A program made the translations under genes and the position numbers. Below the pieces are notes generated by a model, which searched no databases, had not been told where the DNA came from, and saw only the letters and a list, made by a program, of their open reading frames with translations. Shown here piece after piece: positions 11,159-36,210 of a stretch of 36,254 bases of DNA (positions within the stretch are counted from its first letter, which is position 1; every line of letters begins with the position of its first letter). This stretch comes from an uncultured Eubacteriales bacterium (GTDB lineage Bacteria > Bacillota > Clostridia > Monoglobales > Monoglobaceae), in the NCBI GenBank assembly GCA_958346135.1, contig CATVQN010000001.1:1-36254 (forward strand), written 5' to 3'.

Positions 11159-11497
11159 TCACAAATCCTCAAACTTGGAGAGCAGGGAGCTGAACGCTCC
11201 CCACAGTTCTCCGTATCTGGTTTTTAAATCTGCGATGTCCTCCCCATACAGATTGCCGGTGCTGTTCACACGCCTTGCGATCTGGTTCAAATTGTTGGAG
11301 CAGGTGCGCAGCAGGGCGGCCAGTTCCTTAACGTCTGTCATATCTACCCGGACAACGTAGCCGTCCACCGCCATTTTTCTGAGGTACGCCCTCTGGTTGT
11401 GCGTGCCGAGCAGTTCCATCTTTTTGTCAATAATCTCTTTTTCTTCGGGCGATACCTTGAAATACAAGGGAATGGTGCGCCCACTGCGTGGATTCAT
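11159..11497 (-). CDS. mobC: MobC relaxosome accessory protein
   Basis: RHH-like N-terminus, YLRKMAVDGY, NNLNQIARRVN; TAATG overlap with helicase stop. Confidence 0.92.
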   Translation of the reverse strand: MNPRSGRTIPLYFKVSPEEKEIIDKKMELLGTHNQRAYLRKMAVDGYVVRVDMTDVKELAALLRTCSNNLNQIARRVNSTGNLYGEDIADLKTRYGELWGAFSSLLSKFEDL

Positions 11498-14400
11498 TAA
11501 ATTGCCACCTCCATTTCTTTATCTTTCTTTGGTGCTGCACTGGCGGCGGACTCCACACCCATACGGCGCAAAAGCCGCTTGATGGAAGTCTTGCCGTCAT
11601 GCTTTTGCCGTTCCCGGCTGTTTGGTTTGTCTTTGCCGCCGATATTTAACGCCACATTTAAGGCAGCCAGCCGCTCCGATTTTTCCGCAAGCTCCGCTTC
11701 CTGGGGGAATGGACGCTTGACCTCAACCTTGGCGTCCTCCATCTGCTGGAGTAGGTTTCCAAGAACCGTCTGATGCTGTTTCAGGTTATCCCGCATTCCC
11801 TCCAGCACATTGTCCATACGGGTAATGTTGCCAAAGGGGTCGCTGCCCGGTTCAAAGGTGTGGGAGCGTGTATGCTTCAAAGTAATCTGAAGTTTCGGAG
11901 ATAGGCCGCTGTCGGATACCCATAACGTCATGGGAAAACCACGATATTCGCCCAGTTCCACCTTGTCGCTCAAATCTTTCAGGCTTTCAAATGCAGCGAT
12001 GATCGCCTGACCTGCTTCTTTCTTCTCGGTGTAAGTAGTGCCCCTGACCGTCATGGAAAAATGCTCCTTGTCCGGCGGCGTATGGGCTTCCAAGTGCCGG
12101 ATGTCTGTCTCCAGGTCAGCAATCGTTTCCTGTTCCCGTTTGATTGCCTGGGGATAGAACTTAATCAGGTTATCCTCCAGGGCATACCTCTGGCTTTCAT
12201 GGTTGGCTTTTAACAGCTTTAGCTTCGTGACCTGCCCATCCAGTTCGGTCTTTTCCATAATCCTGGGGTCGCCGGATGCCAGCGCCTTGACTTCTGCATA
12301 GGAAAGAGCAGCTTCGTCCACATCCTCGCAAGAGCGGGATGGGTTTTTGCCGCTCATAAGCTGGCCGATGAATTTCTGTTTGTTCTCAATCAGCCCCCAG
12401 TTATAAGCATCAAAGGTTCCCTCGGTCACATACTTAAAGATCTTGACGCTCTTAAACTGGTTGCCCTGGCGCAGAATACGCCCTTCTCGCTGTTCGATAT
12501 CCGCAGGCCGCCACGGACAGTCCAAATGGTGGAGCGCCGCAAGCCGTGTCTGGACATTGGTGCCAGCCCCCATCTTGGAGGTGGAGCCTAAGAGGACACG
12601 CACCTGTCCTTTCCGTACTTTGGAAAAAAGCTCCGCTTTCTGAACGTCGGTCTTTGCGTCATGGATAAAAGCAATCTGTTCCGGCGGAACGCCCTGCGCC
12701 ATCAGCTTCTGTTTGATGTCATCGTACACATTAAAGGAATTATCCCCGTGGGGTGTGGAAAGGTCGCAGAAAACAAGCTGGGCACCTTTCTGGGGTTCCG
12801 TATCCCGCCAGACTTTTAGCACATTTCCCACACAGGCATTGACTTTGCTTTCCGGGTCGTCAGGCAGTTCAGGATATGCCAGACGCTGATCCAGCGCCAG
12901 CTTCCTGCCGTCCGATGTAATCTTGAGCATATTGTCCTCCCTGGGGTCCACTAAGCGGTTTCTTACATCCTCCGCACGTTCTCCCAGTTCAGCAACCAGC
13001 TCTTTTTGAAATTCGCTGGGCTTTGTAACTACCGTGATATTTTCCGATGCCGGAACCGGCAGCTTTAACATTTCAGCAGTCTGGATGTCCGCCGCCTCTT
13101 TCCACATGGCCATCAGTTCCGGCAGGTTGAAAAACTTGGCAAACCGGGTCTTGGCACGGAAACCGCCGCCCTCCGGTGCCAGCTCCAGCGCCGTGACCGT
13201 TTCGCCAAATGCTGCCGCCCAGCTATCAAAGTGGTCAAGGCCGGTTTCTTTTAACAGGTCATATTGCAGGTAGCGCATCATGGTGTAAAGTTCCACCATG
13301 CTGTTGCTGACCGGGGTTCCGGTGGCAAACACCACGCCTTTCCCTCCGGTCAGATCGTCCAGATACCGGCACTTGGCAAACATATCGCTGGATTTCTGAG
13401 CTTCGGACTGCCCGATGCCGGCAACATTCCGCATTTTTGTTGTGAGGAAAAGATTTTTGAATCCGTGTGCCTCGTCCACAAACAACTTATCCACGCCCAG
13501 TTCCTCAAAAGTGACCACATCATCCTTGCGGCTCTGGTCATTTAGCTTTTCCAGTTTCGCCTGCAAGGATTTCCGGGATTTTTCAAGCTGTTTGATGGTG
13601 TAGCGTTCGCCGTTCTGGGCTTTGGCTTCCTCAATGCCGTCAATCACCTGGTCAATCTGCTCCCGCAGGATTGCTTTCTGCCGCTCCGGGGAGAGGGGGA
13701 TTTTCTCAAACTGGGAATGCCCGATCACCACCGCATCATAATCGCCGGTGGCAATCCGGGAACAAAATTTCTTCCGGTTCTGGGGTTCAAAGTCTTTCTT
13801 TGTGGCAACCAGCACTTTGGCACCGGGATAGAGCCGCAGAAAATCTGCGCCCCATTGTTCCGTCAGGTGGTTGGGAACCACCACAAGGTTTTTCCGGCAT
13901 AAGCCCAGCCGTTTGCCCTCCATAGCCGCCGCAATAATCTCAAAGGTCTTGCCAGCGCCCACACAGTGGGCAAGCAGGCTGTTCCCGCCGTAAAGCATCC
14001 GGGCAACGGCATTCTGCTGGTGAGGGCGCAGCTTGATTTCCGGTGTCATACCGGTAAAGCGGATATGGCTGCCGTCATATTCACGGGGTTTGATGCTGTT
14101 GAAGATCTCATTGTATTTTTGGCACAGCGCTTCCCGGCGCTCCGGGTCTTTCCATATCCAGGATTTAAAGGCTTCCCGCACCATTTCCTGTTTCTGCTGG
14201 GCCAGCATGGTTTCTTTCGTGTTGAGGACACGCTTTTCCGTGCCGTCTGCATCGTGGATGGTGTCATAAACCCGGCAGTCCCGCAGATTTAAGCTGTCCT
14301 CAATGATGGCATAGGCGTTCTTGCGCTTGGTTCCGTAGGTCACATAGGCAAGGGTATTGTTCGTACTGTCACGGGTCTTACCGCTGATGTTCCACTCGCC

Positions 14401-17400
14401 GGTGGCAGCGGAATACCGTGCGGCAATGGTATCGCCCCTGAGATAACCGGGGGTCTTTAAAAGTTCATAGGTAAACTGGGTGTAATACTTCGGGTCAATC
14501 CAGGTTGCGCCGATCCGCACATCAATCTCAGCCGCAGAGAGGTCTTTGGGCTGTGACTGCTCCAGCGCAGATACGTTAACCGCATACGCCGGGTCATGTT
14601 CTGCCGCAGCCCTGGCAGCCGCCAGTTTCTTCCGCACGTTGCCGGAAAGGTACTCGTCAGCGTTTTCCCAGCCCTCCAGCGGATGATCCAGCCCTTTTTC
14701 CGGGTTCTTAAAGATCACGCCGGAGAGTTCCTTGGCAATCTCCAGTTCCTCGCCGGGGCGGTCTAATATCTCCGCCATAAAGGAAAGGTCAACCCCGGCC
14801 CGCTCCCCAATGGACACCGCCAGGGCTTCCACCGGGGTATCCACATGGTTAATGCGCTTTTCCTGGTTGATGGTGCGCTTGGAGAACATATCCGCTTTGC
14901 GCTCCAGGTTCCTGTCCTCGTCCAGCACTTCCAGGGAACATAACAGGCAGTAGGAGCTGTCCTGCTCAAACGCACGCTTGTTGCCGGTGCTGTTGAGAAG
15001 CCCCCATTTTGCGGTGAAGCTGTCATAAGCCGAGTTCAGCCGTGTCTGAAGCTGTGCAATCTGCGCATCGGAACCGCCGTTTAGCTGGGTTTCAATTAAG
15101 TTCCGGGTAATGTCCCGCAGGGCGATCATGCCCCGGATGCGTTCCTCCGTGGCAGCCGGGACTTCGACCGGAATCAGCCCGCCATCTTCCTTGTAGTAAA
15201 GTTTTCCGTTTGCTTCGGTGTAACTGAAATTGCGGACTTCGGCAGGGGCGTCCAGGGGTTCGGCTTCCTGCTCCGGTGCAGCCGCTTCCCGCATCAGCAG
15301 GGCTTTGTCCGGTGCGCTTAAATTTGCCACCGCAGCGGCAAGCTGTTCTTTCAAGTCGGCATCCGGCAGCGGCTTGCAGGCGGTTTCCTGCCCGTAGGGG
15401 CCGCCTTCCCATACCATAGAACCCAGAACCATTTCCGGGTGCTGTTCAAAATATTTGTTGACGGGAATGCCGGCAGCGGTCTGGGAAACGTCTACCCAGT
15501 CCGGCATCTGTTCCGGCGGAGCGGCCCGTTTCTGCAAAAAGATGATGTCGCTGGTCACTTCCGTACCGGCATTTTTAAACGCATTGTCCGGCAGGCGGAC
15601 AGCGCCCAAAAGGTCGGCTCTCTCTGCCAGGTATTCCCGGACGGCGGTGTTCGGCTTATCCAGTGTGCCTTTTGATGTGATAAATGCCACGATACCGCCT
15701 GGACGCACTTTATCCAACGTCTTTCCAAAGAAATAATCGTGGATGAAAAAGTGCTGCTTATCATACCGGGCGTCGGCTATCTGGTAGTTGCCAAAGGGCA
15801 CGTTGCCCACCGCCAGGTCAAACCGGTTATCGGCAAAGTTGACACGCTCGAACCCGTCCACTGTGATATGCGCCTGGGGATAAAGCTGCTTGGCGATCCT
15901 GCCCGTGATGGAATCCAGTTCCACGCCGTAAAGGGCAGTATCTTTCATGGAATCCGGCACCATGCCAAAAAAATTGCCGGTGCCCATCGCAGGCTCCAGC
16001 ATGGTTTTTGGTTCTAAGCCCATCTGCTCCACGGCATGATAAATGCTTTCAATGATGACCGGTGCGGTGTAATGGGCGTTTAGGGTCGAACCTCTGGCGG
16101 CTTCATATTCAGCCGGGGTTAAAAGCCCTTTCAGTTCGGCATATTCTGTTTTCCACTTTTCATCGGAACCGTCAAACGCCTGGGGAATGCCGCCCCAGCC
16201 CACATAACGGGACAGGGTTTCCTGTTCCTCCGGCGTGGCATTTCGGCCACCGGCTTCCAGTTCCTTTAACAGCCGGATGGCCGCCACATTCGCCTGATAC
16301 TTTGCTTTCGGGCCGCCCACTCCCAGATCGGGAGCAGTAATGCGGAAATTTTCTGCTTTGGGCGGTTGGGGCTGCACAGGTGCTGCCGGTTCGGACGGCT
16401 CCGACAGCGGAGCGCCGGATGCAGCCAGTTCTTCCAGTTCCTTGTCCTGGGCGTCTTTGACCAGTTCCCGGACGTAAGACACCGGCTCATTCCTGAAAAC
16501 CGGGAATCCGGTTCCGGCAGCAAAGGTATCATCCCGCAGGCTGACCGAGCCGAAATCATAGTCTACGCTGTCAATGGTAAAAGTGCGCCCCTCGTCTGTG
16601 ACCTGCATCCCGATGGGGATATAGTCTGCAATCTCCAGGACTTTCTGGACTTCGTAGGTTTCTCCCTCCGGGCGGGCAAACAGGGCGCTGTTTCCGTGCT
16701 GGAGCAGCTTTTCCCCCAATGCCTGCCAGCTTGCGGCAGAGCCGGTGACGGCAGTTTCCCCAAGTCCCGGAATCTCCCTGGTAACGATCTTGCTCCCCAG
16801 GGCTTTGGCGGCAGTTTCCGCATCCTTGCCATAGAACAGATACAGATCATCCACTCGGACACCTGCCACATGGCCGGGGTATTCTGCTTTGAGCTTTAAG
16901 TATTCTTCGGTCAGCGGCGTAAGGTTCGGCTCCGGCTGGGGGCTTTCTTCCTCTGACGGTGCGCCCGCACGGGTTTCCCTGTCAGTACGTTCCGGCTGGG
17001 GCAGGGTACTTTCCTGTCCGGCTTCCTTTAAGGTCAGTGTGCGCCCCAGGGCGGTATAAGTTTCGCCGTTATCCTGGAAGAACACCGCAGGCAGGCCCGC
17101 CGTCTGTAACCGGTCAGCGGCTTCCTGCCAGCCCTCCCGGATACCTGCCACGGTCACTTCGCCTATTCCCGGCAGATCAACCGGCAGAAGCCAGGATACC
17201 GGCACCGCTTCAAAGGCAGTCCGGGCATCTTCACCGTAAAACAGGCAATACCCGCCGTTTTGGATACCGACCAATTCTTTCGGGTGCTTTTCTTTTAAGG
17301 CGTTGTAGGCATCCACATGGGGTAAAAGGGTTGTAGAGCCAGACGTTTCAGCCGGTTCTTCCGGTTCTGTCTTTCCCGTTACCCACGCAGGAGCATCGGG

Positions 17401-20400
17401 GTCATTTTCGTGCTGTTCCACGCTGGTACGGCGATCCGTTACCATATCCTGATAAGTACGCTCTAAAATATCGTCGATTAAGTATTCCCTGAAATCCGGC
17501 AGCGTGGTGTAGGCTTCATAAAGGGCGGGACGGCTGTCTTTCAGACCGGACAGCAGTTCGTCCAGTTTTGCTGAAAGTTCTTCCTGGGCATCCAGCACAT
17601 CTGTATCCCGGTCACGCAGGAAAGGATAGATCTCACTCTGTTCGATCAATCCGATCAGTTCCGGCAGCGCCGCTTCATAAAGCCGTTTCGGGGTAAGGGC
17701 TGCCTGTTCCGTTGCCTGGGCAAGCACTTCCTTGTGCAGACGGTTATGGAAAGCGGACACATCAAAATAGGCTTTGGTCAGTTCCACATCGTCCACGGCA
17801 AGCACCGCCCGCCTGATAGCGACGTCGCACTCGATTTTGATATTTTCCTCATCGGAATTTTCCAGGGCGTTGGCAAAGGCGTTATCCTGTAAGACCTGGG
17901 CTAAGACCACGGGCTGGAATTGCTCATAAATATCCCGGACAGTGCGCTTTGCCGGTTCCGGCTCCAGGGCGGCCTCCGCTTCGTCACGCTCCAGCATAGA
18001 CCGGGTGTGGTCTGCCAGTTCCTCCGGCTTCGGGGTTTCACTTCCCAATTCCTCAAAAGCGTCATTCAAATATTCTTCAGAAACCACAAGCCCTTGTTTA
18101 TCCAACAGTTCCTGTGCCTGTAAAATGATTTTCTCACGGGAGGATGGAGCATCCGGTTTTTCCGGTTCCGTCTGCACCGCACTTTCCGAAAAATCAAAGG
18201 AAAGCTGTTCCGGTTCGTCCGCTTTTGCCGTTTTGCGGCTCTGGCTCTTTAACCGCCGCAGGGCAGACTGGGCGGCATCCAGGGGCTTTTGTTCCCGGCT
18301 GGCTTTCGGCTGTTTCGCCGGTGCCGCCTTTTGGGGCATATCCGCCGCCCTTTGGATCAGCGAATAGGAGCCGTCTTTGTAAGCGGAAAGCCTGTCATAC
18401 GCCCTGGTGCAGACTTCATAGCCATACTGTTTGGGTGTCAGGGACTGCAAGCCGTCTTTCATCACAGACAGCAGGCCGTCCACCTGCGCCGGATTATCAA
18501 GCATGGGGCGAACCTGCTTCCAGCCATCAAAGAATCCCTCCACCTGATAAGGACGCTGTTCTTTGGCTGCATAGTGGAAAAAGGAATCCACATCACGGGA
18601 GAGGATAAAACGCTCATATTCCGGGAACCGTGCCTTATCGTCCGGGGTAAGGAACCGCCCACTTTCCATAAGCTGATGGATATGGCGCTCGGCCTGGTTC
18701 CAGTTCAAAGAAGTTTCCGCATAAGGCTTCCCATAGCTGCGCTTGATCTTCATGCCTTTGGCATCATGCCAGGTATCACGGATAGAACTGCCACTGCCGC
18801 CAGTGCCAAAAGACTCTTTCAGATAATCCTGTCTTTCTTTGCGGTCTGTGTGATTCTGGAAAAACACATACGCCGCCAGCTTGCTGTCCGAATAGCCGCC
18901 GCCAGGGGCAAGCACCTCATTGATTTCGTCTTCTGTAATGAAAGTGGGGCGTTCTTCCTTGAACTGCCCATCCAGGGGAAAGACTTCTGCCGGGATCTGC
19001 GCCTGCTCAAGCCGGTGCAAAATGGCGTTGGGGCGGTGAAAATGGAACCGCAGGATTTCCCGGTTCTCCTGGTAAGCATCGCAGAAGCCCTCCATTTCTT
19101 TTACAACAGCCGCCAACTGCTCCGGGGATTGCAGCAGCTTTTCTAACTTAGCCGTATCCTCCGGGAAACCGCCCCTCTGCATATAGACTCCATCCACAGT
19201 GGGGAGAAGTCCGGCTTCCTTTGCCCCATCGCCAAAATCCTGCCTAAGATACCAAAGCTGCGCCGCCAGTTCTTTAAATTCATTCCCTTTGACCCGGCCT
19301 GCCTGTTCCGCAGAAAGATATTTGCCGGTTTCCACCAGCCTGCGGATACGGCTTTCTACCTCCGTCCAGGACAGGCGCAGGCTCTCTTTGTCATAGCGGG
19401 CACTTTTGCCGCTGTTGATAGAAAGCCCGTTTTCATCAAACCAGACCGCATAGGGAGTGCCGTCTATGGTAAAGCCACGCCCGCCGGTGCCGAACTCTTT
19501 GCGTAAGGATACCGCCATTTCTCCCGCAGGAGCGCCAGCCTGATACTGGGCATAAATACGGAGCGCACCGGCAGGCTCGTTGGTTCCGGCAGACAAAATC
19601 CGCTCGACTGCCTGCTCCGGCACCATGCCCACAGAAAAAGCGGGGGCGCTTGCCTCCGCTTGTGACTGGGCGATCTGTTCAATCTGTTCCTCCACGGTGG
19701 GGAACAGGGACATTTGTGTAAAAGTTGGGTTGGCATCGGAATAGGGGCCGTCCATCTCCACAGACGATAAGACGGCAGGCTCGCCGCCTGCCGTCCGGGT
19801 GTCTGTATTTAACTGTAAATCAGGTCTGCCATCACGATCTCCTCGGCTCTCTGCCGGATGTTGTTCATCCGCTGTACCCATTCCATCTGGTTGGCTGCTT
19901 TCAGTTCCTCCGTCACGCCCTCGCTCATCGCCAGTTCCGCCATCACGCTCTCTACCTGCTGGTTCGCCGCCTGGTCGATCTCCGTCAGATGTGCCCACAG
20001 GGTTCCTTTCAACAGCATCGCCGTGTAAGCCGCTTTCCGGTGTTCCATCAGATATTTCTCCCTCGCCCTGCCGTACCGGGTCAGGGTTTCCGGTTCGTTC
20101 TTCCTGCTGTCCATCACGATGTTCGGAATCTGATAACCGTTCCGGTTGGTGTATGTCAATTCGCTCATCTTCGCCACTCCTTTCACGCTTTAAAGTGTTA
20201 AACTGTTCATCTTTATTATAGGACACATCCGGCTGTTTGGCAAGGCTTTTTTTCGCCTGTCTGACCTGTTCCAGTTGGATATTTTTTACCGCCTCACCGA
20301 TCTCCATTAAAATGGTGCGGTTGGCTTCGGCGGTGGCAGTGCCCAGGCAGGCCAGGGTGCCCACGTTGTTAAAGTTCGTGATGCCCCGCAGATCGTCTGC

Positions 20401-21027
20401 GTCGATATAGAGGGAAGCGTCCAGCCCGCAGCGGGTTAAAACCGCATACTGGACGCTGGCTTTTATGGTGTCACGGAAAATGACCTCTATGTTGTGGTCG
20501 TCCAGTCCCTCTAAAAAGCTGTCCTCCACCTCATAGTGCAGGTCACGGAGATATTCCCCATAGTGTTCCTCCGACACCTTTGAAGCCGCTTCCATCAGGC
20601 ACTCGCCCAGGTCGCCGCCCTCCGGGATACCGAACGCTTTTGCCAGCCGTTCCATAACCGGGGCATGATAGGCTTCCTCCATTCTCCAAAGCCACGGGTC
20701 TTTGCCGCCTTTTACCCTATGAGTATCAGAAACATCGTGGACGTTCTGGATATAGGGCCTGCCGCCTGTGCCTTTGCGGATCAAGCCGATTGCATTGGAA
20801 CCAGCGGTGACCCAGCGGTGCATCTTGTTATTCCACGTTTCAATGTCCGCACAGGCGACTGCATCCGGGCGCTGGATATAGATTAAAAGCTGGTCGTCAA
20901 AATCATAGCTTTTATAAAACCGGGATGCCGTGGTTAGAAACTTCTGCCAGTTTTCCGGTGTTCTTGTGACTTCCTGCTGGGCTTTCTGCGCCAGCTCAGA
21001 AATATACAGAAACCATCTGTTTGCCAT
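11497..21027 (-). CDS. Giant polyvalent protein: ArdC-like N-terminus, repeated accessory domains, N6-adenine MTase, SNF2-like helicase (DarB-like)
   Basis: [12 protein letters not shown] (MTase motif I), GNVPFG (motif IV), [28 protein letters not shown]-terminal W..FL.TASRFY.Y.F..QLLIY.QRP; AAAGGAGG RBS. Confidence 0.92.
19809..20168 (-). CDS. tnpV: TnpV-family protein (119 aa) nested in the +1 frame of the giant helicase gene
   Basis: MSELTY...GYQIPN...[12 protein letters not shown]...L.AHL.EID..A...[34 protein letters not shown] is the TnpV pattern; AAAGGAG RBS 8 nt upstream. Confidence 0.85.
20215..20243 (-). promoter_or_regulatory. Internal sigma70 promoter for nested tnpV
   Basis: Minus strand TTGCCA (20243-20238), 17 bp, TATAAT (20220-20215), about 46 nt upstream of the tnpV ATG. 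Confidence 0.75.
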
Positions 21028-21042
21028 TGTGACCTCCTTTCA

Positions 21043-21086
21043 AACGAAAAACACCCAGAACCTGCTTTTTTACAAGTTCTGGGTGT
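21043..21086 (-). terminator. Intrinsic terminator immediately upstream of the helicase RBS
   Basis: ACACCCAGAAC / GTTCTGGGTGT 11-bp stem then TTTTCGTTT on minus strand. Confidence 0.7.
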
Positions 21087-21105
21087 AGTTTACAAATAGG
21101 ATTCT

Positions 21106-21330
21106 TTAATAATTTTGTTTTGCCTGTTCCGATAAATGGCGGATCAATTCTTCTGGGGTTGGGATTTCTCCCTTGCATGGAACACGGCTCTGATAGGCTT
21201 TGGTTATCTCGTTATTATTTAGTGGATTGGTATATGCGTCCGTAATAGCAGCCTGCATTTCCCGCTTGACTTCTTCCACGCTGACACCGTATTCTTTCGC
21301 TACTTTCCGGTATATCTTCCTCATGTTCAT
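21106..21330 (-). CDS. Small Spo0A C-terminal-domain-like DNA-binding protein (74 aa)
   Basis: IYRKVAKEYGVS.EEV.REM..AI..A and PTPEELI resemble the Spo0A effector HTH; AGGAGG RBS. Confidence 0.7.
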   Translation of the reverse strand: MNMRKIYRKVAKEYGVSVEEVKREMQAAITDAYTNPLNNNEITKAYQSRVPCKGEIPTPEELIRHLSEQAKQNY

Positions 21331-21375
21331 AAAAGTTTCCTCCTAAGTAAATACTGTAATCGCCTGAATGATTCG

Positions 21376-21404
21376 ATTATAAGCGATAATAACACTCGTT
21401 TCAA
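21376..21404 (-). promoter_or_regulatory. Sigma70 promoter for the Spo0A-C-like gene
   Basis: Minus strand TTGAAA (21404-21399), 17 bp, TATAAT (21381-21376). Confidence 0.75.
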
Positions 21405-21478
21405 TAGAAACAGGCGTTACAATCGCTCGGTTTTGGCTTCGGCGTGACTTATGATTATCTACAAGGAGGGAGCAGCAA

Positions 21479-21796
21479 ATGGAAGAACAATTTATTCGTG
21501 ACCGGCTTTCCAAACTTCGGGAAGAAAAGCAGGTTTCAGAACGAAAAATGAGCCTGGATTTAGGACACAGCACCAGTTATATCCGTGGCATCACATCCGG
21601 CAGGTCGCTCCCGTCTATGAGCGAGTTCCTTTATATCTGTGAATACTTAGGTATCACACCATCAGAATTCTTCAAAGAAGAAAAAGAAACCACTTTGACC
21701 CAACAAAAAGCGATTGACTATATCTATACCATGACGGATGAGGACATCCAGTTACTAATTGGATTTATCGAACGGATGAAGCACACAGACGAATAA
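21479..21796 (+). CDS. XRE/Cro-C1 family HTH regulator
   Basis: RL..LREEK.VSE.KMSLDLG.S.SYI..I.SG...PS......IC.YLG.TP.EFF; AAGGAGG RBS. Confidence 0.9.
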   Translation: MEEQFIRDRLSKLREEKQVSERKMSLDLGHSTSYIRGITSGRSLPSMSEFLYICEYLGITPSEFFKEEKETTLTQQKAIDYIYTMTDEDIQLLIGFIERMKHTDE

Positions 21797-21831
21797 CAGG
21801 CGGTATCTGAAAAGAACGGACACCGCCTGTT
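21795..21831. terminator. Bidirectional terminator between convergent genes
   Basis: AACAGGCGGT / ACCGCCTGTT inverted repeat. Confidence 0.7.
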
Positions 21832-21833
21832 TC

Positions 21834-22121
21834 TTATTGTCGGCGTTCTTTATTTTTCCGGTTCATATCCTCCAAAACCTTTTTCTGTGCTTCAGACAAC
21901 ACCCTGGGCGGGGCAATCTTAACCCACTTCTTGGGAAGTGAGTATGTCAGACCGCCGTAGCCATTGTCGCCAGTCTGCGTGACCTGCTCCGGGTGGCTCT
22001 GGTACAAGCTGTTCAGCGTGTTCTGCAAGCCTGTGTTGTAGGTATAAACCGCAGCAGTGGATTCACTCTCATTAAAGAGGATGATCGTTTCCTGCTCATA
22101 CTTTGTTAATCTCATAGGCAT
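21834..22121 (-). CDS. Conserved ICE hypothetical protein
   Basis: LTKYEQETII.FNE...A.VYTYN and PKKW.....PR pattern seen in Firmicutes ICE backbones; TAATG coupling to upstream gene. Confidence 0.8.
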   Translation of the reverse strand: MPMRLTKYEQETIILFNESESTAAVYTYNTGLQNTLNSLYQSHPEQVTQTGDNGYGGLTYSLPKKWVKIAPPRVLSEAQKKVLEDMNRKNKERRQ

Positions 22122-33640: not shown

Positions 33641-33656
33641 ATTGGGAGGAAAACGA

Positions 33657-34883
33657 ATGACCGTAGTTGGAATCGATGTTTCTAAGGGTAAGAGTATGGT
33701 AGCTGCCATGAAGCCCGGTGGGGAGCTTGTTGCAGCGCCATATGAGGTAAGGCATTCAGATATTGAACTGTCGCGCCTTGCGTTGGATGTTCTTTGCATG
33801 GAGCCAGATACCCGCGTTGTAATGGAAGCAACCGGCAGATACCATGAGCCGGTAGCAGCGCTGCTTCACAGTGAGGGAATCTTTGTGAGCATCCTAAACC
33901 CATTGCTTATTAAGCAAAGCGGAGCAGGCTCTCTGCGCAAGGTAAAATCCGATCCGAAGGATGCTCTTAAAATTGCTAAATATGGGCTTGACAACTGGTC
34001 TACATTGCGGGAATATACTCCTACGGAAGCAATTAGACAACAACTCAAGCTGTGCGAACGTCAATGCGACTTGTATAGCAAGAACATTGTCATGCTCACA
34101 AACAACCTTATTTCTTTGTCTGACAAGACCTTTCCGGGTGTAAACGAGCTGTTCTCAAGCCCCGAAAAGGCAGACGGACATTTGAAGTGGGTAGATTTTT
34201 ACAGAACCTTTTGGCATTGCGACTGCATTAACCGTATGTCACCGGATGCTTTTGGAGAGCGATACAAGAAATGGTGCAAGAAAAAGGGCTACCATTTTAG
34301 TGCTGATGCGACAAATGCTCTCTACGCAGCCAGCTGCGGACTTTACACCACGCTGCCGCGTGACAACAATGCCAAGTTACTGGTTACGGTTGCCGCCGAC
34401 CAGCTTATTGCACTGCGCGAAAACCAGTCCAAGCTGGAAGCCGAGATGCTGAATCTCTGCAAGCAGCTGCCGGAGTACGAGACCGTTATGGCCATGTATG
34501 GCGTTGGGAAGTCCACTGGGCCGCATCTCATGGCTGAATTAGGTGATATTCGCCGTTTCCCGCACCGCAGTTCTATTGTGGCCTTTGCAGGCGTAGACCC
34601 CGGCGTTGTTGGCTCCGGCAAGATGCAGCTTTCCAGTGTGGCAACTTCCAAGCGTGGATCACCTCAATTGAGAAAAGCACTCTTTCAAGTGGTTTCTACT
34701 TACGTCAAACGCAAACCCAAAAACGAGGCGGTTTACCAGTTCTACGCCAAAAAGCGTGACGAGGGAAAGCCTTTCTTCGTTTGCACTACCGCTGCTGCGA
34801 ACAAGTTCCTGCGTATTTACTATGCCCGTGTCAAGGAGTGTCTGAACGCTGCTGAAAGTGCAGTTCAAACCGAAGAAGGCTAA
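33657..34883 (+). CDS. IS110 family DEDD recombinase/transposase (start moved to ATG 33657, 408 aa)
   Basis: VGIDVSK, MEATG, KSDPKDA (D-E-D-D), GVG, AELGDI.RF, AGVDP...SG (Ser), SKRGS..LR; GGAGG RBS. Confidence 0.95.
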   Translation: MTVVGIDVSKGKSMVAAMKPGGELVAAPYEVRHSDIELSRLALDVLCMEPDTRVVMEATGRYHEPVAALLHSEGIFVSILNPLLIKQSGAGSLRKVKSDPKDALKIAKYGLDNWSTLREYTPTEAIRQQLKLCERQCDLYSKNIVMLTNNLISLSDKTFPGVNELFSSPEKADGHLKWVDFYRTFWHCDCINRMSPDAFGERYKKWCKKKGYHFSADATNALYAASCGLYTTLPRDNNAKLLVTVAADQLIALRENQSKLEAEMLNLCKQLPEYETVMAMYGVGKSTGPHLMAELGDIRRFPHRSSIVAFAGVDPGVVGSGKMQLSSVATSKRGSPQLRKALFQVVSTYVKRKPKNEAVYQFYAKKRDEGKPFFVCTTAAANKFLRIYYARVKECLNAAESAVQTEEG

Positions 34884-35325: not shown

Positions 35326-35384
35326 AAAAAAAGAAAAGGCTCCACCGATTTCAAAGCCCACAAAGGGGCATCGGTGGAGCCTTT
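35326..35384 (-). terminator. Intrinsic terminator directly after virD4
   Basis: AAAGGCTCCACCGAT / ATCGGTGGAGCCTTT 15-bp stem, 20-nt loop, then TCTTTTTTT on minus strand. Confidence 0.65.
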
Positions 35385-36210
35385 AGGCAGCCGCTTGGGG
35401 CTGTTCTATCTCTCCGAGGTCATAGACCTCAAATTCTTCTTCCGGCTTGACTTTGAGCCGGTGTTGCAGGTATGTCTTTACATCAAAGGTAAACTTGGGG
35501 TTGGCGTCTGCCGTGTACTTGTACTGGGGATGCTTCGTCAGATCATACTTCTTGGAGTAGAATGGGCGGACACCCTGCACCTGGACGATGCAGCGGCTGG
35601 AGGGCATGACAGCCAGCTCATCCACGCTCATCAGTTCTTTGCCCAGCTTCTGATAGTTCAGACCGTAGGTACGCTGGGCACCACGGGAATCGCTTTCATT
35701 CATGGTGTCAATGGTTTCTTTTCCCAAAAGCCCGGACACCATCTTTAAGCTGCTTTCCTCTTTCCCGCCCAGAAACAGCATAGTCGAGCAGCACCCGGCA
35801 ACGGTTTCCGCATTGTCCTTATACATTCCTTTAAGCTGGCTGAACGTCTGGAGGACGATGTGGGCAGATATATTCCTCGACCGGATCACGGAAACCAAAT
35901 GCTCCCAGTTCGGAATTTTTTGGTTTGCGAACTCATCAAACAGGCAGGTTACATGGATCGGGAGCCTGCCATGATAGACTTTCAACGCCCGGTCGCACAG
36001 TACGTTGAACATCTGGGAGTACATCATGGCTGAAATGAAGTTGAACGTCGGGTCGGTATCGGAAACCACCGCAAAGAGGGCGGTTTTCTCGTCACCCAGC
36101 TTTTCAAGCTCTAATTCATCATAGGACATCATCTCCCGGACGGCGGCAATATCAAATGGGGCTAATCTGGCCCCGCAGGAAATAAGTATGCTTTTTAGAG
36201 TTTTTCCAGA
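35383..36210 (-). pseudogene. virD4: 3' part of VirD4/TraG-like coupling protein gene, separated from its 5' part
   Basis: Frame reads SGKTLKSILISCGARLAPFDI..REMMSYDELE...LFDEFAN...IRSRNIS...LQ..SQL..Y; in-frame TGA at 36222-36220 and non-homologous AT-rich DNA upstream. Confidence 0.85.

What the first reader, a model, noticed from the sequence alone, without database searches (positions are those of the whole stretch)
19809..20243. Hidden transcription unit: full TnpV-family gene with its own promoter and RBS overprinted inside the 9.5-kb MTase-helicase gene
Seen: a 119-aa ORF (20168-19809) on the same strand and in the +1 frame of the 3176-aa ORF. It is preceded by AAAGGAG (8 nt spacing) and TTGCCA-N17-TATAAT, all inside the host reading frame. 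The nested product has a normal helical composition and the TnpV pattern. The host-frame product over the same bases is a G/D/E/R/P-rich disordered linker, as expected when the other frame carries the selection. Knowledge: TnpV was named in Tn4451-type transposons and its function is unresolved; gene callers normally drop fully nested genes. Inference: this is a real dual-coding locus. The promoter lies downstream of the terminator at 21043-21086, so TnpV (and perhaps an N-truncated MTase-helicase, mobC) could be expressed while the transfer operon is off. TnpV is therefore a candidate overlooked ICE regulator or partner of the anti-defence protein.
Basis: partly seen in the sequence, partly recalled or inferred. 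Interest (0 to 1): 0.88.

Follow-up and report, generated by a model that had tools for sequence, protein, structure and literature searches.

The report
TnpV gene nested inside conjugation gene
A small, complete gene (tnpV) is written in a second reading frame inside a giant conjugative-element gene, both readings are kept intact across many distantly related bacteria, and the small protein is predicted to clamp onto the part of the giant protein encoded just upstream of it.

Summary
Window 20168-19809 (-) is a 119-aa ORF that matches Pfam TnpV over its full length (E 3.2e-39). It lies in the +1 frame of the 3176-aa ORF 21027-11497 and is preceded by AAAGGAG-N8-ATG and TTGCCA-N17-TATAAT.

The arrangement is conserved, not a chance open frame. 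I fetched 61 distinct TnpV ORFs. In all 45 that sit inside a homologous giant ORF, the frame relation is the same and the host frame has 0 stops, while the third frame has 6-20. All 16 stand-alone tnpV genes have 3-12 stops in the equivalent frame.

Nested copies occur in 18 of 401 genomes sampled across the phylum (15 families) and on Enterococcus faecalis plasmids. Substitutions favour the TnpV frame. The host reading of the overlap is an acidic segment predicted to be disordered (pLDDT <50), lying between an ArdC-like N-terminal domain and the rest of the protein.

A complex prediction places TnpV on that ArdC-like domain (ipSAE 0.92, best control 0.00). Expression could not be tested because no RNA run was listed.

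Public records annotate either TnpV or the full giant ORF. I found no paper that describes the overlap. It is a new variant of embedded-gene architecture, closest to lambda Rz/Rz1.

The parts
11497..21027 (-). Host gene: a 3176-aa polyvalent protein. It comprises an ArdC-like header, an acidic linker, MutS-I (aa 1370-1421, 16765-16920), an N6 DNA methylase (aa 1645-1836, 15520-16095), an SNF2/ResIII ATPase (aa 2330-2525, 13453-14040) and Helicase_C (aa 2773-2855, 12463-12711).
   Evidence: ORF, translation, Pfam domains.
20230..21027 (-). ArdC-like N-terminal header domain of the host protein (aa 1-266). It is the predicted docking site of TnpV.
   Evidence: AF2 pLDDT is 83-94 over aa 1-266. 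R388 ArdC gives the top Foldseek hits, prob 0.97-0.99, E about 0.01. VIA-align gives Z 10.3, 215 residues aligned, rmsd 4.9, with the next best at Z 5.1. There is no Pfam hit at E<=0.01 and no HExxH at the protease position in 16 of 16 sequences.
19699..20229 (-). Host-frame acidic linker predicted to be disordered (aa 267-443). It contains the tnpV promoter, SD, ORF and hairpin.
   Evidence: pLDDT is below 50 for aa 267-443. Linker pI is 4.1-4.9 in 16 of 16 relatives. Mean pairwise identity is 31% in the host frame against 46% for TnpV over the same DNA.
20215..20243 (-). Internal sigma-70-like promoter, TTGCCA-N17-TATAAT (-35 at 20243-20238, -10 at 20220-20215).
   Evidence: Found and conserved in L002 and L003. 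Sites scoring at least 9 of 12 occur in 16 of 23 nested loci against 7.8% of 1150 control windows. Where the host has Tyr-Asn at this spot, the codons are TATAAT in 13 of 16 loci and AAT in 16 of 16, against a background of 0.35.
20177..20184 (-). Shine-Dalgarno sequence GAAAGGAG, 8 nt before the tnpV ATG. It reads Glu-Arg-Ser in the host frame.
   Evidence: A GAAAGG core sits in the 18 nt before the start in most of the 44 nested loci listed. The exceptions are L045, L048, L051, L053-L056 and L081, which have variant or weak sites.
19809..20168 (-). tnpV: 119 codons plus TAA, in the +1 frame of the host gene.
   Evidence: Nested homologues are, and 15 of 15 tested exceed the Pfam cut-off. The AF2 model (beta-hairpin plus helices) has mean pLDDT 84.7.
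19759..19807 (-). Strong RNA hairpin (core stem 19770-19796) starting 2 nt after the tnpV stop, still inside the host frame.
   Evidence: dG is -32.4 kcal/mol with z -5.7. The stem is invariant in L002 and L003 and is flagged terminator-like there. It is absent from the other nested loci.
21041..21086 (-). Intrinsic-terminator-like hairpin with a T tail, 24 nt upstream of the host gene's ATG.
   Evidence: A similar site lies upstream of the L003 homologue.
21106..21404 (-). Upstream unit: promoter TTGAAA-N17-TATAAT (21404-21376) plus a 74-aa Spo0A_C-like ORF (21330-21106). This is the only promoter-like site found that could feed the host gene.
   Evidence: Pfam Spo0A_C matches at E 2.8e-7.

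Best explanation
tnpV is a functional gene embedded in the +1 frame of a conjugative-element polyvalent protein gene (ArdC-like header, MutS-I, adenine methylase, SNF2 helicase). Both readings are used.

Ribosomes that start at 21027 read straight through and turn the tnpV DNA into an acidic, disordered tether of about 175 aa between the ArdC-like header and the rest of the protein. This is inferred from the conserved open frame.

TnpV itself is started independently at its own ATG, behind a conserved GAAAGGAG. In this locus it is probably also transcribed from its own promoter at 20243-20215. This is inferred from conservation and is not measured.

The 119-aa product is a beta-hairpin plus a helical bundle. 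It then binds the ArdC-like header encoded immediately upstream, laying its hairpin against the header's beta-strands, which are the presumed ssDNA-binding face. This step is a prediction only.

My preferred reading of the purpose is that TnpV acts as a cis-encoded cap, chaperone or regulator of the DNA-binding header of a protein that travels with the transferred DNA.

The TnpV frame carries the amino-acid constraint. The host frame is constrained mainly to stay free of stops.
For: - Same frame relation and 0 host-frame stops in 45 of 45 nested copies. The third frame has 6-20 stops in the 44 copies tabulated. All 16 stand-alone tnpV have 3-12 stops in the equivalent frame.
- T at TnpV codon position 3 before AA/AG/GA occurs in 0 of 767 cases, against 195 of 1546 in other contexts. 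Third-position T in the rest of the big ORF is 20.4%.
- Synonymous resampling leaves the host frame open in 9, 4, 5, 4, 0 and 1 of 3000 trials.
- The arrangement is found in 18 of 401 phylum-sampled genomes from 15 families, in 14 of 120 other genomes of the same family, and on E. faecalis plasmids at 33% TnpV identity.
- Substitutions in 11 independent close pairs favour TnpV. Changes that are synonymous in TnpV and non-synonymous in the host make up 47.9% of those observed against 17.9% of those possible. The reverse class makes up 17.5% against 22.2%.
- TnpV exceeds the Pfam cut-off in the window and in 15 of 15 other nested ORFs tested.
- The SD and promoter are conserved.
- The host linker is modelled at pLDDT below 50, exactly over the overlap.
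- The complex prediction gives ipSAE 0.92 in 3 of 3 runs, best of 3 controls 0.00, partner pLDDT 90, and at least 88% shared contacts. In calibration that mark was reached by 58 of 80 solved complexes and 2 of 110 mismatched pairs; these counts hold only roughly because my own alignments were used.
- No solved TnpV structure exists that could explain the pass from memory.
Against: - There is no expression evidence of any kind. No RNA run was listed, and there is no TSS, Ribo-seq or peptide data.
- The promoter-like site is weak or absent in 7 of 23 loci, so a promoter is not universal.
- In this sub-clade a very stable hairpin follows tnpV inside the host gene. If it terminated efficiently it would cut the host transcript.
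- Stand-alone tnpV genes sit next to serine recombinases, DUF6809 or defence genes with no ArdC-like neighbour. TnpV must therefore have, or also have, a role that does not need a cis-encoded header.
- Binding is a model's confidence, not a measurement.
- The loci are related, so the counts are not independent.
Confidence: 0.75

Rival explanations
1. tnpV is translated, but only by internal initiation on the long operon mRNA. The promoter-like motif is not a working promoter, and its conservation reflects host-protein residues (Leu-Ala ... Tyr-Asn).
For: 7 of 23 nested loci score 8 or less out of 12. The motif lies at the very end of the folded header domain (aa 262-271), so protein constraint is conceivable. 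The SD is conserved more widely than the promoter.
Against: Where the host has Tyr-Asn, the codons are TATAAT in 13 of 16 loci and AAT in 16 of 16, against a background of 54% AAT. Protein-level selection does not explain that. The window site matches 11 of 12 positions with a 17-nt spacer. Sites scoring at least 9 of 12 occur in 16 of 23 loci against 7.8% of controls.
Confidence: 0.25
2. The giant ORF is not one protein. The ArdC-like part, tnpV and the methylase-helicase are three separate genes, and the uninterrupted host frame is a by-product of T-poor composition.
For: The coding strand is T-poor, and in the window two reverse frames are also free of stops over the tnpV span. One RefSeq record lists TnpV and starts the SNF2 protein about 1.9 kb downstream.
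Against: The ArdC-like reading frame has no stop before the end of the 2000-3300-aa ORF in 45 of 45 loci. The third frame has 6-20 stops in the same DNA. Stand-alone tnpV of similar GC content (0.36-0.57) has 3-12 stops in that frame. Even permuting each gene's own synonymous codons opens the frame in only 23-379 of 3000 trials. Indels between relatives keep the frame.
Confidence: 0.04
3. The tnpV frame is a silent relic. An old tnpV gene was swallowed as linker material and is no longer expressed, so only the host frame matters.
For: No expression data exist. The E. faecalis RefSeq plasmid record lists only the giant gene at this place.
Against: Nested TnpV sequences have diverged to as little as 27% identity to any of my TnpV query sequences. 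Yet 45 of 45 keep an intact 111-146-aa frame (44, plus L085), and 16 of 16 tested match Pfam above the cut-off. Most keep a start codon behind an SD. Substitutions preferentially spare the TnpV frame, not the host frame.
Confidence: 0.04
4. TnpV sequence is joined to the ArdC-like header by programmed +1 frameshifting rather than made as a free protein.
For: The two frames run on the same strand, offset by +1.
Against: The TnpV frame is closed by TAA 8 codons upstream of its ATG in the window. It is closed 2-13 codons upstream in L034 and L035. tnpV has its own ATG and SD at fixed spacing. The predicted complex uses free TnpV.
Confidence: 0.02

Closest known systems
Phage lambda Rz/Rz1 embedded spanin genes (abstracts of PMC5295617 and PMC6139136 seen; that Rz1 lies in the +1 frame of Rz is recalled)
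   Same: A small gene lies wholly inside a larger one, on the same strand in the +1 frame. Both are coding, and the two products form a complex.
   Different: Here the host is a conjugative-element protein of about 3000 aa, not a lysis protein. The embedded gene belongs to an independent family that also exists stand-alone. The host reading of the overlap is a disordered tether. Binding is only predicted.
comS inside srfAB of Bacillus subtilis (recalled, no call)
   Same: A short regulatory gene is embedded out of frame in a very large multidomain gene on the same strand.
   Different: comS is 46 codons and is restricted to close relatives. tnpV is 111-146 codons and the overlap is kept across at least 15 families. 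comS has no promoter of its own, as far as I recall.
TnpV of Tn4451/Tn4453 (PF14198). [quoted passage not shown]
   Same: Same protein family, with a full-length HMM match. Tn4451-type stand-alone copies (L036, L037) fall among nested copies in the tree.
   Different: The Tn4451-type gene is free-standing, directly after a large serine recombinase, and has 4 stops in the frame that is open here. Neither fold search listed a Xis-like fold among its matches; the best match was Z 6.0.
Polyvalent proteins of conjugative elements (Iyer et al. 2017, PMC5512222; passages read)
   Same: The host has the typical make-up: an N-terminal ArdC-type header, MutS-I, and an adenine methylase with SWI2/SNF2 ATPase.
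   Different: That paper's main text has 0 occurrences of 'TnpV', 'overlapping', 'frameshift' or 'internal promoter'. Its supplements were not seen. The embedded gene is therefore not part of the published description.
VirE1-VirE2 of Agrobacterium (abstract of PMC4513855: small acidic chaperone co-expressed with the secreted ssDNA-binding VirE2)
   Same: A functional analogy only. A small, mildly acidic helical protein (pI 5.4) is encoded next to, and predicted to bind, the DNA-binding module of a protein thought to travel through a type IV system.
   Different: No sequence or fold relation was shown. Transfer of the polyvalent protein and any chaperone activity of TnpV are untested.

Membership tests
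TnpV (Pfam PF14198) | Full-length match to the family HMM above the gathering score | tested here: met
   133.8 bits against a cut-off of 27, profile positions 1-111 of 111. 15 of 15 other nested ORFs are also above the cut-off, the weakest at 28.2 and 29.8 bits.
TnpV (Pfam PF14198) | Free-standing small gene of a transposon, next to a TnpX-type serine recombinase (the Tn4451 arrangement) | tested here: not met
   In the window it is fully inside ORF 11497-21027. No recombinase was found among the 21 window ORFs scanned. The free-standing arrangement is seen in L036 and L070.
Embedded same-strand overlapping gene pair (Rz/Rz1 type) | The inner gene lies wholly within the outer gene in another frame, and both frames are kept open in diverged relatives | tested here: met
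   45 of 45 nested loci, against 16 of 16 stand-alone controls with stops.
Embedded same-strand overlapping gene pair (Rz/Rz1 type) | Both products are made | not testable with these tools
   No RNA run was listed. The only evidence is indirect: a conserved SD and start and TnpV-frame purifying selection.
Embedded same-strand overlapping gene pair (Rz/Rz1 type) | The two products bind each other | tested here: inconclusive
   Prediction only: ipSAE 0.92, best control 0.00.
Polyvalent protein of conjugative elements (Iyer 2017) | Several unrelated effector domains in one polypeptide of a mobile element, with an ArdC-type header and a methylase-SNF2 dyad | tested here: met
   MutS_I, N6_Mtase, SNF2-rel_dom, ResIII and Helicase_C are present. 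The header has an ArdC-like fold. The flanking genes are relaxase, MobC/NikA, VirB4-like, TrbL-like, VirD4-like and CD1107-like.
ArdC antirestriction protein | Fold of R388 ArdC (ssDNA-binding N domain plus helical domain) | tested here: met
   Z 10.3, 215 residues aligned, rmsd 4.9 over model residues 7-245, with the next entry at Z 5.1. Foldseek prob is 0.97-0.99 but E is only about 0.01.
ArdC antirestriction protein | Sequence-model match (Pfam ArdC-N) and the zincin HExxH motif | tested here: not met
   No Pfam family at E<=0.01 for aa 1-270. No HExxH at the protease position in 16 of 16 aligned sequences. I therefore call it 'ArdC-like fold', not a member.
Lambda Xis-type excisionase (the old proposal for TnpV) | Xis-like DNA-binding fold | tested here: inconclusive
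   No such entry appears among the Foldseek or VIA-align matches, and the best match is Z 6.0 to an unrelated helical protein. A missing match does not exclude the fold.

The most novel reading that the evidence does not exclude
TnpV is the dedicated partner of the ArdC-like header of T4SS-delivered polyvalent proteins. It caps the header's ssDNA-binding beta-face in the donor, in the manner of VirE1 with VirE2. Writing tnpV inside the tether that follows the header makes partner and target emerge from the same stretch of mRNA, which allows co-translational assembly. That would explain why the overlap has been held across a whole phylum. Free-standing tnpV genes on mobilizable transposons such as Tn4451 would then be escaped copies that let a hitch-hiking element engage the header of a helper conjugative element.
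Probability: 0.25. Interest if true: 0.9.

Novelty: new variant of a known kind. Interest (0 to 1): 0.8.

Why it matters
Long same-strand overlapping genes in bacteria are few and often disputed. Here the comparative evidence is unusually clean: 45 nested copies, 16 natural controls, a third-frame control, and spread across a phylum.

The finding shows a route opposite to classical overprinting. An older, constrained gene has become the raw material for a disordered linker of a larger protein.

It gives the first testable functional handle on TnpV, a family whose function remains unresolved (it was only postulated to be Xis-like; PMC3158075): a predicted binding site on the ArdC-like header of conjugative polyvalent anti-defence proteins.

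It also exposes a systematic annotation conflict. The gene tables seen list either TnpV or the full giant ORF, so one of the two is missing or truncated. This affects elements common in gut Bacillota and on enterococcal plasmids. The window's exact TnpV sequence alone is on 448 contigs.

Tried and rejected
- **RNA evidence.** The look-up of sequencing runs (rna) on window 18000-22000 listed no RNA holder.
- **TnpV fold.** Foldseek against PDB found no match at E<=0.001. VIA-align wide gave a best Z of 6.0, below what helical models reach by chance. The PDB sequence profile gave only one hit, at E 0.1, to a designed protein. No fold-based function could be assigned.
- **DUF6809.** It lies directly upstream of 4 of the 13 stand-alone tnpV loci whose neighbours I scanned. 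I compared it with the ArdC-like header profile as a possible stand-alone equivalent, and hhalign gave probability 0.04. Rejected.
- **N-truncated helicase.** I looked for a conserved in-frame restart codon after the tnpV stop. The window's GGAG-ATG is not conserved in L002 or L003. Dropped.
- **Single origin of nesting.** The tree needs 6 changes of state, of which at least 4 are forced by strongly supported branches. With only 117 columns and no root, I make no claim about direction.
- **Genome-contig scan.** Using the header protein it gave only 2 loci. The genome search was far more productive.
- **Technical corrections.** One Pfam call failed on a frame slip and was corrected.
Full report
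**1. The observation**

On the minus strand, an ATG at 20168 opens a 119-codon frame that ends with TAA at 19811-19809. It lies inside the 3176-aa ORF 21027-11497, and the offset of 859 nt puts it in the +1 frame. The product matches Pfam TnpV (PF14198) end to end at E 3.2e-39 and 133.8 bits, against a cut-off of 27.

AAAGGAG sits 8 nt before the ATG. TTGCCA-N17-TATAAT lies at 20243-20215 and matches 11 of 12 consensus positions.

**2. Setting**

The window is part of a conjugative element. It encodes:
- a VirD4-like coupling protein
- TrbL/VirB6-like and VirB4-like proteins
- an NlpC/P60 hydrolase
- a CD1107-like protein
- topoisomerase III
- a DUF4316 protein

These are followed by the giant gene, then MobC/NikA-like and relaxase genes, and then cargo: a radical-SAM protein, a nitroreductase, ArsR and two P-type ATPases.

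The giant protein carries MutS-I, an N6-adenine methylase and an SNF2/ResIII helicase. This is the make-up of the 'polyvalent proteins' of conjugative elements (PMC5512222, passages read).

Its first 266 residues fold confidently, at pLDDT 83-94. The only clear structural match is R388 ArdC:
- Foldseek prob 0.97-0.99, with E only about 0.01
- VIA-align Z 10.3, 215 residues aligned, rmsd 4.9, with the next entry at Z 5.1

The region has no Pfam hit and no HExxH at the protease position in 16 of 16 aligned sequences. I therefore call it ArdC-like rather than a member of the family.

**3. Is the double reading more than chance?**

The coding strand is T-poor here (14% T), and that lowers stop frequency generally. 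Four controls show this is not the explanation.

(a) Third-frame control. The third frame of the same DNA has 15 stops in the window and 6-20 in the 44 nested relatives tabulated.

(b) Resampling. Redrawing TnpV's codons from the big ORF's own usage leaves the host frame open in 9, 4, 5, 4, 0 and 1 of 3000 trials for six loci. Permuting each gene's own synonymous codons opens it in only 23-379 of 3000 trials.

(c) Codon context. In 20 nested loci, T at TnpV codon position 3 occurs 0 of 767 times before a codon starting AA, AG or GA, which are the only contexts that would create a host-frame stop. It occurs 195 of 1546 times elsewhere. This count left out the stand-alone L021 and the truncated L026.

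(d) Natural controls. All 16 free-standing tnpV genes I fetched have 3-12 stops in the equivalent frame.

**4. Conservation**

Searching the header-plus-linker through whole genomes gave matches in 19 of 121 genomes of the window's family. It gave matches in 37 of 401 genomes drawn evenly from the phylum.

Every place where the header domain (profile positions about 1-245 or more) matched lay in an open frame of 728-3300 aa with no internal stop. Every such locus I fetched contained an intact tnpV in the same +1 relation. The same profile also hit 14 places through its linker part alone, and all 14 had 3-12 stops. These are stand-alone tnpV genes read out of frame.

In total there are 61 distinct TnpV ORFs, 45 nested and 16 free-standing. 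One search gives 60 of them. Hits covering fewer than 70 query residues were dropped, and identical ORFs were merged; for example L038 equals L014. L085 was added.

Nested copies come from:
- 18 of the 401 phylum-sampled genomes, in 15 families
- 14 other genomes of the window's family
- two genome contigs records, Eisenbergiella porci and a Eubacteriales MAG
- plasmid-collection records, including E. faecalis pCFSAN126951_02. There the match lies under the 2101-aa 'SNF2-related protein' WP_010730142.1, and no TnpV is listed at that place.

I tested 15 nested ORFs spanning the range of divergence, and all 15 exceed the Pfam TnpV cut-off. One distant header homologue, L086, goes straight from header to methylase without a tnpV-like frame. 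The overlap is therefore not obligatory for every ArdC-like polyvalent protein.

**5. Which frame carries the selection?**

Across 20 nested loci, mean pairwise identity is 46% for TnpV and 31% for the host reading of the same DNA.

I chose 11 non-overlapping close pairs from 26 pairs of equal length with 1-20% DNA divergence, and classified the substitutions:

| Effect of the change | Observed | Of all possible single changes |
|---|---|---|
| Synonymous in TnpV, non-synonymous in host | 47.9% | 17.9% |
| Non-synonymous in TnpV, synonymous in host | 17.5% | 22.2% |
| Non-synonymous in both | 28.7% | 49.7% |

TnpV is thus under purifying selection while nested. The host frame is tolerant apart from the ban on stops.

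The host reading is always acidic, with pI 4.1-4.9 in 16 of 16 sequences. It is modelled at pLDDT below 50 from residue 267 to 443. In most loci the next conserved host motif (SLF..PTEEQ) begins at the tnpV stop codon itself. The tether is, in effect, the tnpV cassette.

**6. Expression signals**

A GAAAGG core lies in the 18 nt before the start codon in most of the 44 nested loci listed. The exceptions, with variant or weak sites, are L045, L048, L051, L053-L056 and L081.

A sigma-70-like site scoring at least 9 of 12 lies 25-65 nt upstream of the ATG in 16 of 23 loci. One of the 23, L038, duplicates L014. The same score is reached by 7.8% of 1150 control windows taken from the same ORFs.

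Where the host protein has Tyr-Asn at that spot, the codons are TATAAT in 13 of 16 loci, TACAAT in 3, and never ...AAC. The background expectation for TATAAT is 0.35, giving binomial p = 2e-4; the loci are not independent. This points to selection on the DNA hexamer itself.

The big gene starts 24 nt after a terminator-like hairpin. That hairpin follows a small Spo0A_C-like gene with its own promoter. A similar hairpin precedes the L003 homologue.

**7. What TnpV may do**

The AF2 model has mean pLDDT 84.7. It shows an N-terminal beta-hairpin, at low confidence when modelled alone, followed by four to five helices. It has no convincing match in the PDB.

The header and tnpV always travel together, so I used the one complex job on TnpV against host residues 1-266. 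The result was ipSAE 0.92 in three of three runs, 0.00 in all three controls, partner pLDDT 90, and at least 88% of contacts shared between runs. In calibration this mark was reached by 58 of 80 solved complexes and 2 of 110 mismatched pairs; these counts hold only roughly here because my own alignments were used.

The predicted interface has two parts:
- TnpV residues 4-21 (the conserved TY..GDY.IPNL hairpin) lie against host residues 73-97. These are the beta-strands that correspond to the ssDNA-binding hairpins of ArdC-N/Rad4 BHD described in PMC5512222.
- TnpV helices 33-58 lie against host helices 5-17, 42-47 and 222-234.

No solved structure of TnpV exists, so the pass cannot come from memory of a known complex. 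It remains a prediction.

**8. Evolution**

On a TnpV tree of 61 rows and 117 columns, built with a quick search and left unrooted, nested and free-standing copies are intermixed. The tree needs 6 changes of state, of which at least 4 are forced by well-supported branches. Tn4451-type copies that lie behind a serine recombinase (L036, L037, L070) fall inside a group of nested copies. One free-standing copy, L073 with 9 host-frame stops, is sister to a nested one, L049 with 0 stops, at 98% support.

The state has therefore switched several times, and the stop-free condition tracks it. I make no claim about direction.

Free-standing copies have varied neighbours: a serine recombinase, DUF6809 in 4 of the 13 loci whose neighbours I scanned, HTH regulators and defence genes. 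None has an ArdC-like neighbour. DUF6809 is unrelated to the header. TnpV therefore cannot depend solely on a cis-encoded header.

**9. Known or new?**

The nested proteins themselves are in public databases under the name 'TnpV protein'. Examples are the L002 protein from Eisenbergiella porci, and relatives from E. faecalis, C. difficile and S. suis. The window's exact sequence occurs on 448 contigs.

The gene tables seen treat the locus inconsistently. The table for the E. faecalis RefSeq plasmid lists the whole giant gene and no TnpV. The table for the Monoglobus record lists TnpV and starts the SNF2 protein about 1.9 kb downstream, although one uninterrupted frame spans everything. These tables omit pseudogenes.

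In the literature library:
- 'TnpV' occurs in 38 papers, and none of the titles or abstract openings listed concerns an overlap.
- 'TnpV' together with 'ArdC' occurs in one paper, only as entries in separate lists.
- The polyvalent-protein paper does not mention TnpV, overlapping, frameshift or internal promoter in its main text. Its supplements were not seen.
- A search on overlapping genes, alternative frames and conjugative elements returned nothing relevant among the 14 papers listed.

Subscription journals are not covered by these searches.

The closest known architecture is lambda Rz/Rz1 (abstracts of PMC5295617 and PMC6139136 seen; the frame detail is recalled). The closest functional analogy is VirE1-VirE2 (abstract of PMC4513855).

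**10. Verdict**

The finding is real and conserved, and its main interpretation is correct. What is shown:
- the two open frames
- their conservation, with controls
- the direction of selection
- the conserved SD and promoter-like site
- the ArdC-like fold
- the disorder of the host reading

What is inferred: that both products are made, and that the promoter fires. What is predicted only: that TnpV binds the header.

Noticed in passing
window 21106-21404 (-): A promoter-like site (TTGAAA-N17-TATAAT), a 74-aa Spo0A_C-like ORF (Pfam E 2.8e-7) and a strong terminator-like hairpin lie directly upstream of the giant gene. The giant gene has an SD of its own, but no promoter-like site was found between the hairpin and its ATG. 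This looks like an attenuator-type gate on the giant gene.
   Followed up: partly
window 19759-19807 (-); L002 3991-4015; L003 5243-5257: A very stable hairpin (-32.4 kcal/mol, z -5.7) follows the tnpV stop, inside the host reading frame. It is present only in the window/L002/L003 sub-clade, as part of an insert of about 70 nt relative to the other nested loci. It is unclear whether it terminates or stabilises a tnpV transcript, and how the host transcript passes it.
   Followed up: partly
L066, L067, L077, L078 (stand-alone tnpV loci): A DUF6809 gene lies directly upstream of tnpV in 4 of the 13 stand-alone loci whose neighbours I scanned, which suggests a second conserved TnpV partnership. 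DUF6809 shows no profile similarity to the ArdC-like header.
   Followed up: partly
L085 2150-2587 (+), inside a 2449-aa ORF: A very divergent nested TnpV of 146 aa (Pfam 29.8 bits) occupies the same +1 position behind a GAAAGGAAG site. tblastn with the other TnpVs missed it, so more divergent nested copies probably exist.
   Followed up: partly
L086 (G432:C5), 2354-aa ORF: A distant header homologue whose ORF runs from the header through a short Pro/Ser-rich stretch straight into the methylase, with no tnpV-like frame. It is a possible pre-capture or post-loss state.
   Followed up: partly
L026 (G014:C5) and L003 7336-7429: L026 holds a truncated copy, with the header in a 355-aa ORF and only a 46-aa TnpV remnant. 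In L003 the giant ORF stops after 1111 aa and a second long ORF follows. This is either decay or a MAG assembly error.
   Followed up: no
L038 (NZ_OY725736.1) and L034 (NZ_CP119161.1): The gene tables seen for these RefSeq records resolve the overlap in opposite ways. In one, TnpV is listed and the SNF2 protein starts about 1.9 kb downstream. In the other, the whole SNF2-related protein is listed and TnpV is not.
   Followed up: yes
window 33642-34883 (+) and 35383-36132 (-): An IS110-family transposase gene sits between the TrbL-like gene and a VirD4-like ORF. That ORF matches only the C-terminal half of the T4SS-DNA_transf profile (positions 247-445 of 468), so the coupling-protein gene may be split or truncated near the window end.
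   Followed up: no
window 18625-18939 (-) and 19228-19620 (-): The giant protein holds internal repeats of a module of about 110 aa. Query residues 469-579 match a second place in the same ORF, and relatives show two or three such places. This part has no Pfam family.
   Followed up: no
window 19725-20221 (+): Two long ORFs on the opposite strand (158 and 140 aa) overlap tnpV. They are explained by the T-poor coding strand: 0 stops in two reverse frames in the window, but 1-7 in most relatives. They are not conserved.
   Followed up: yes
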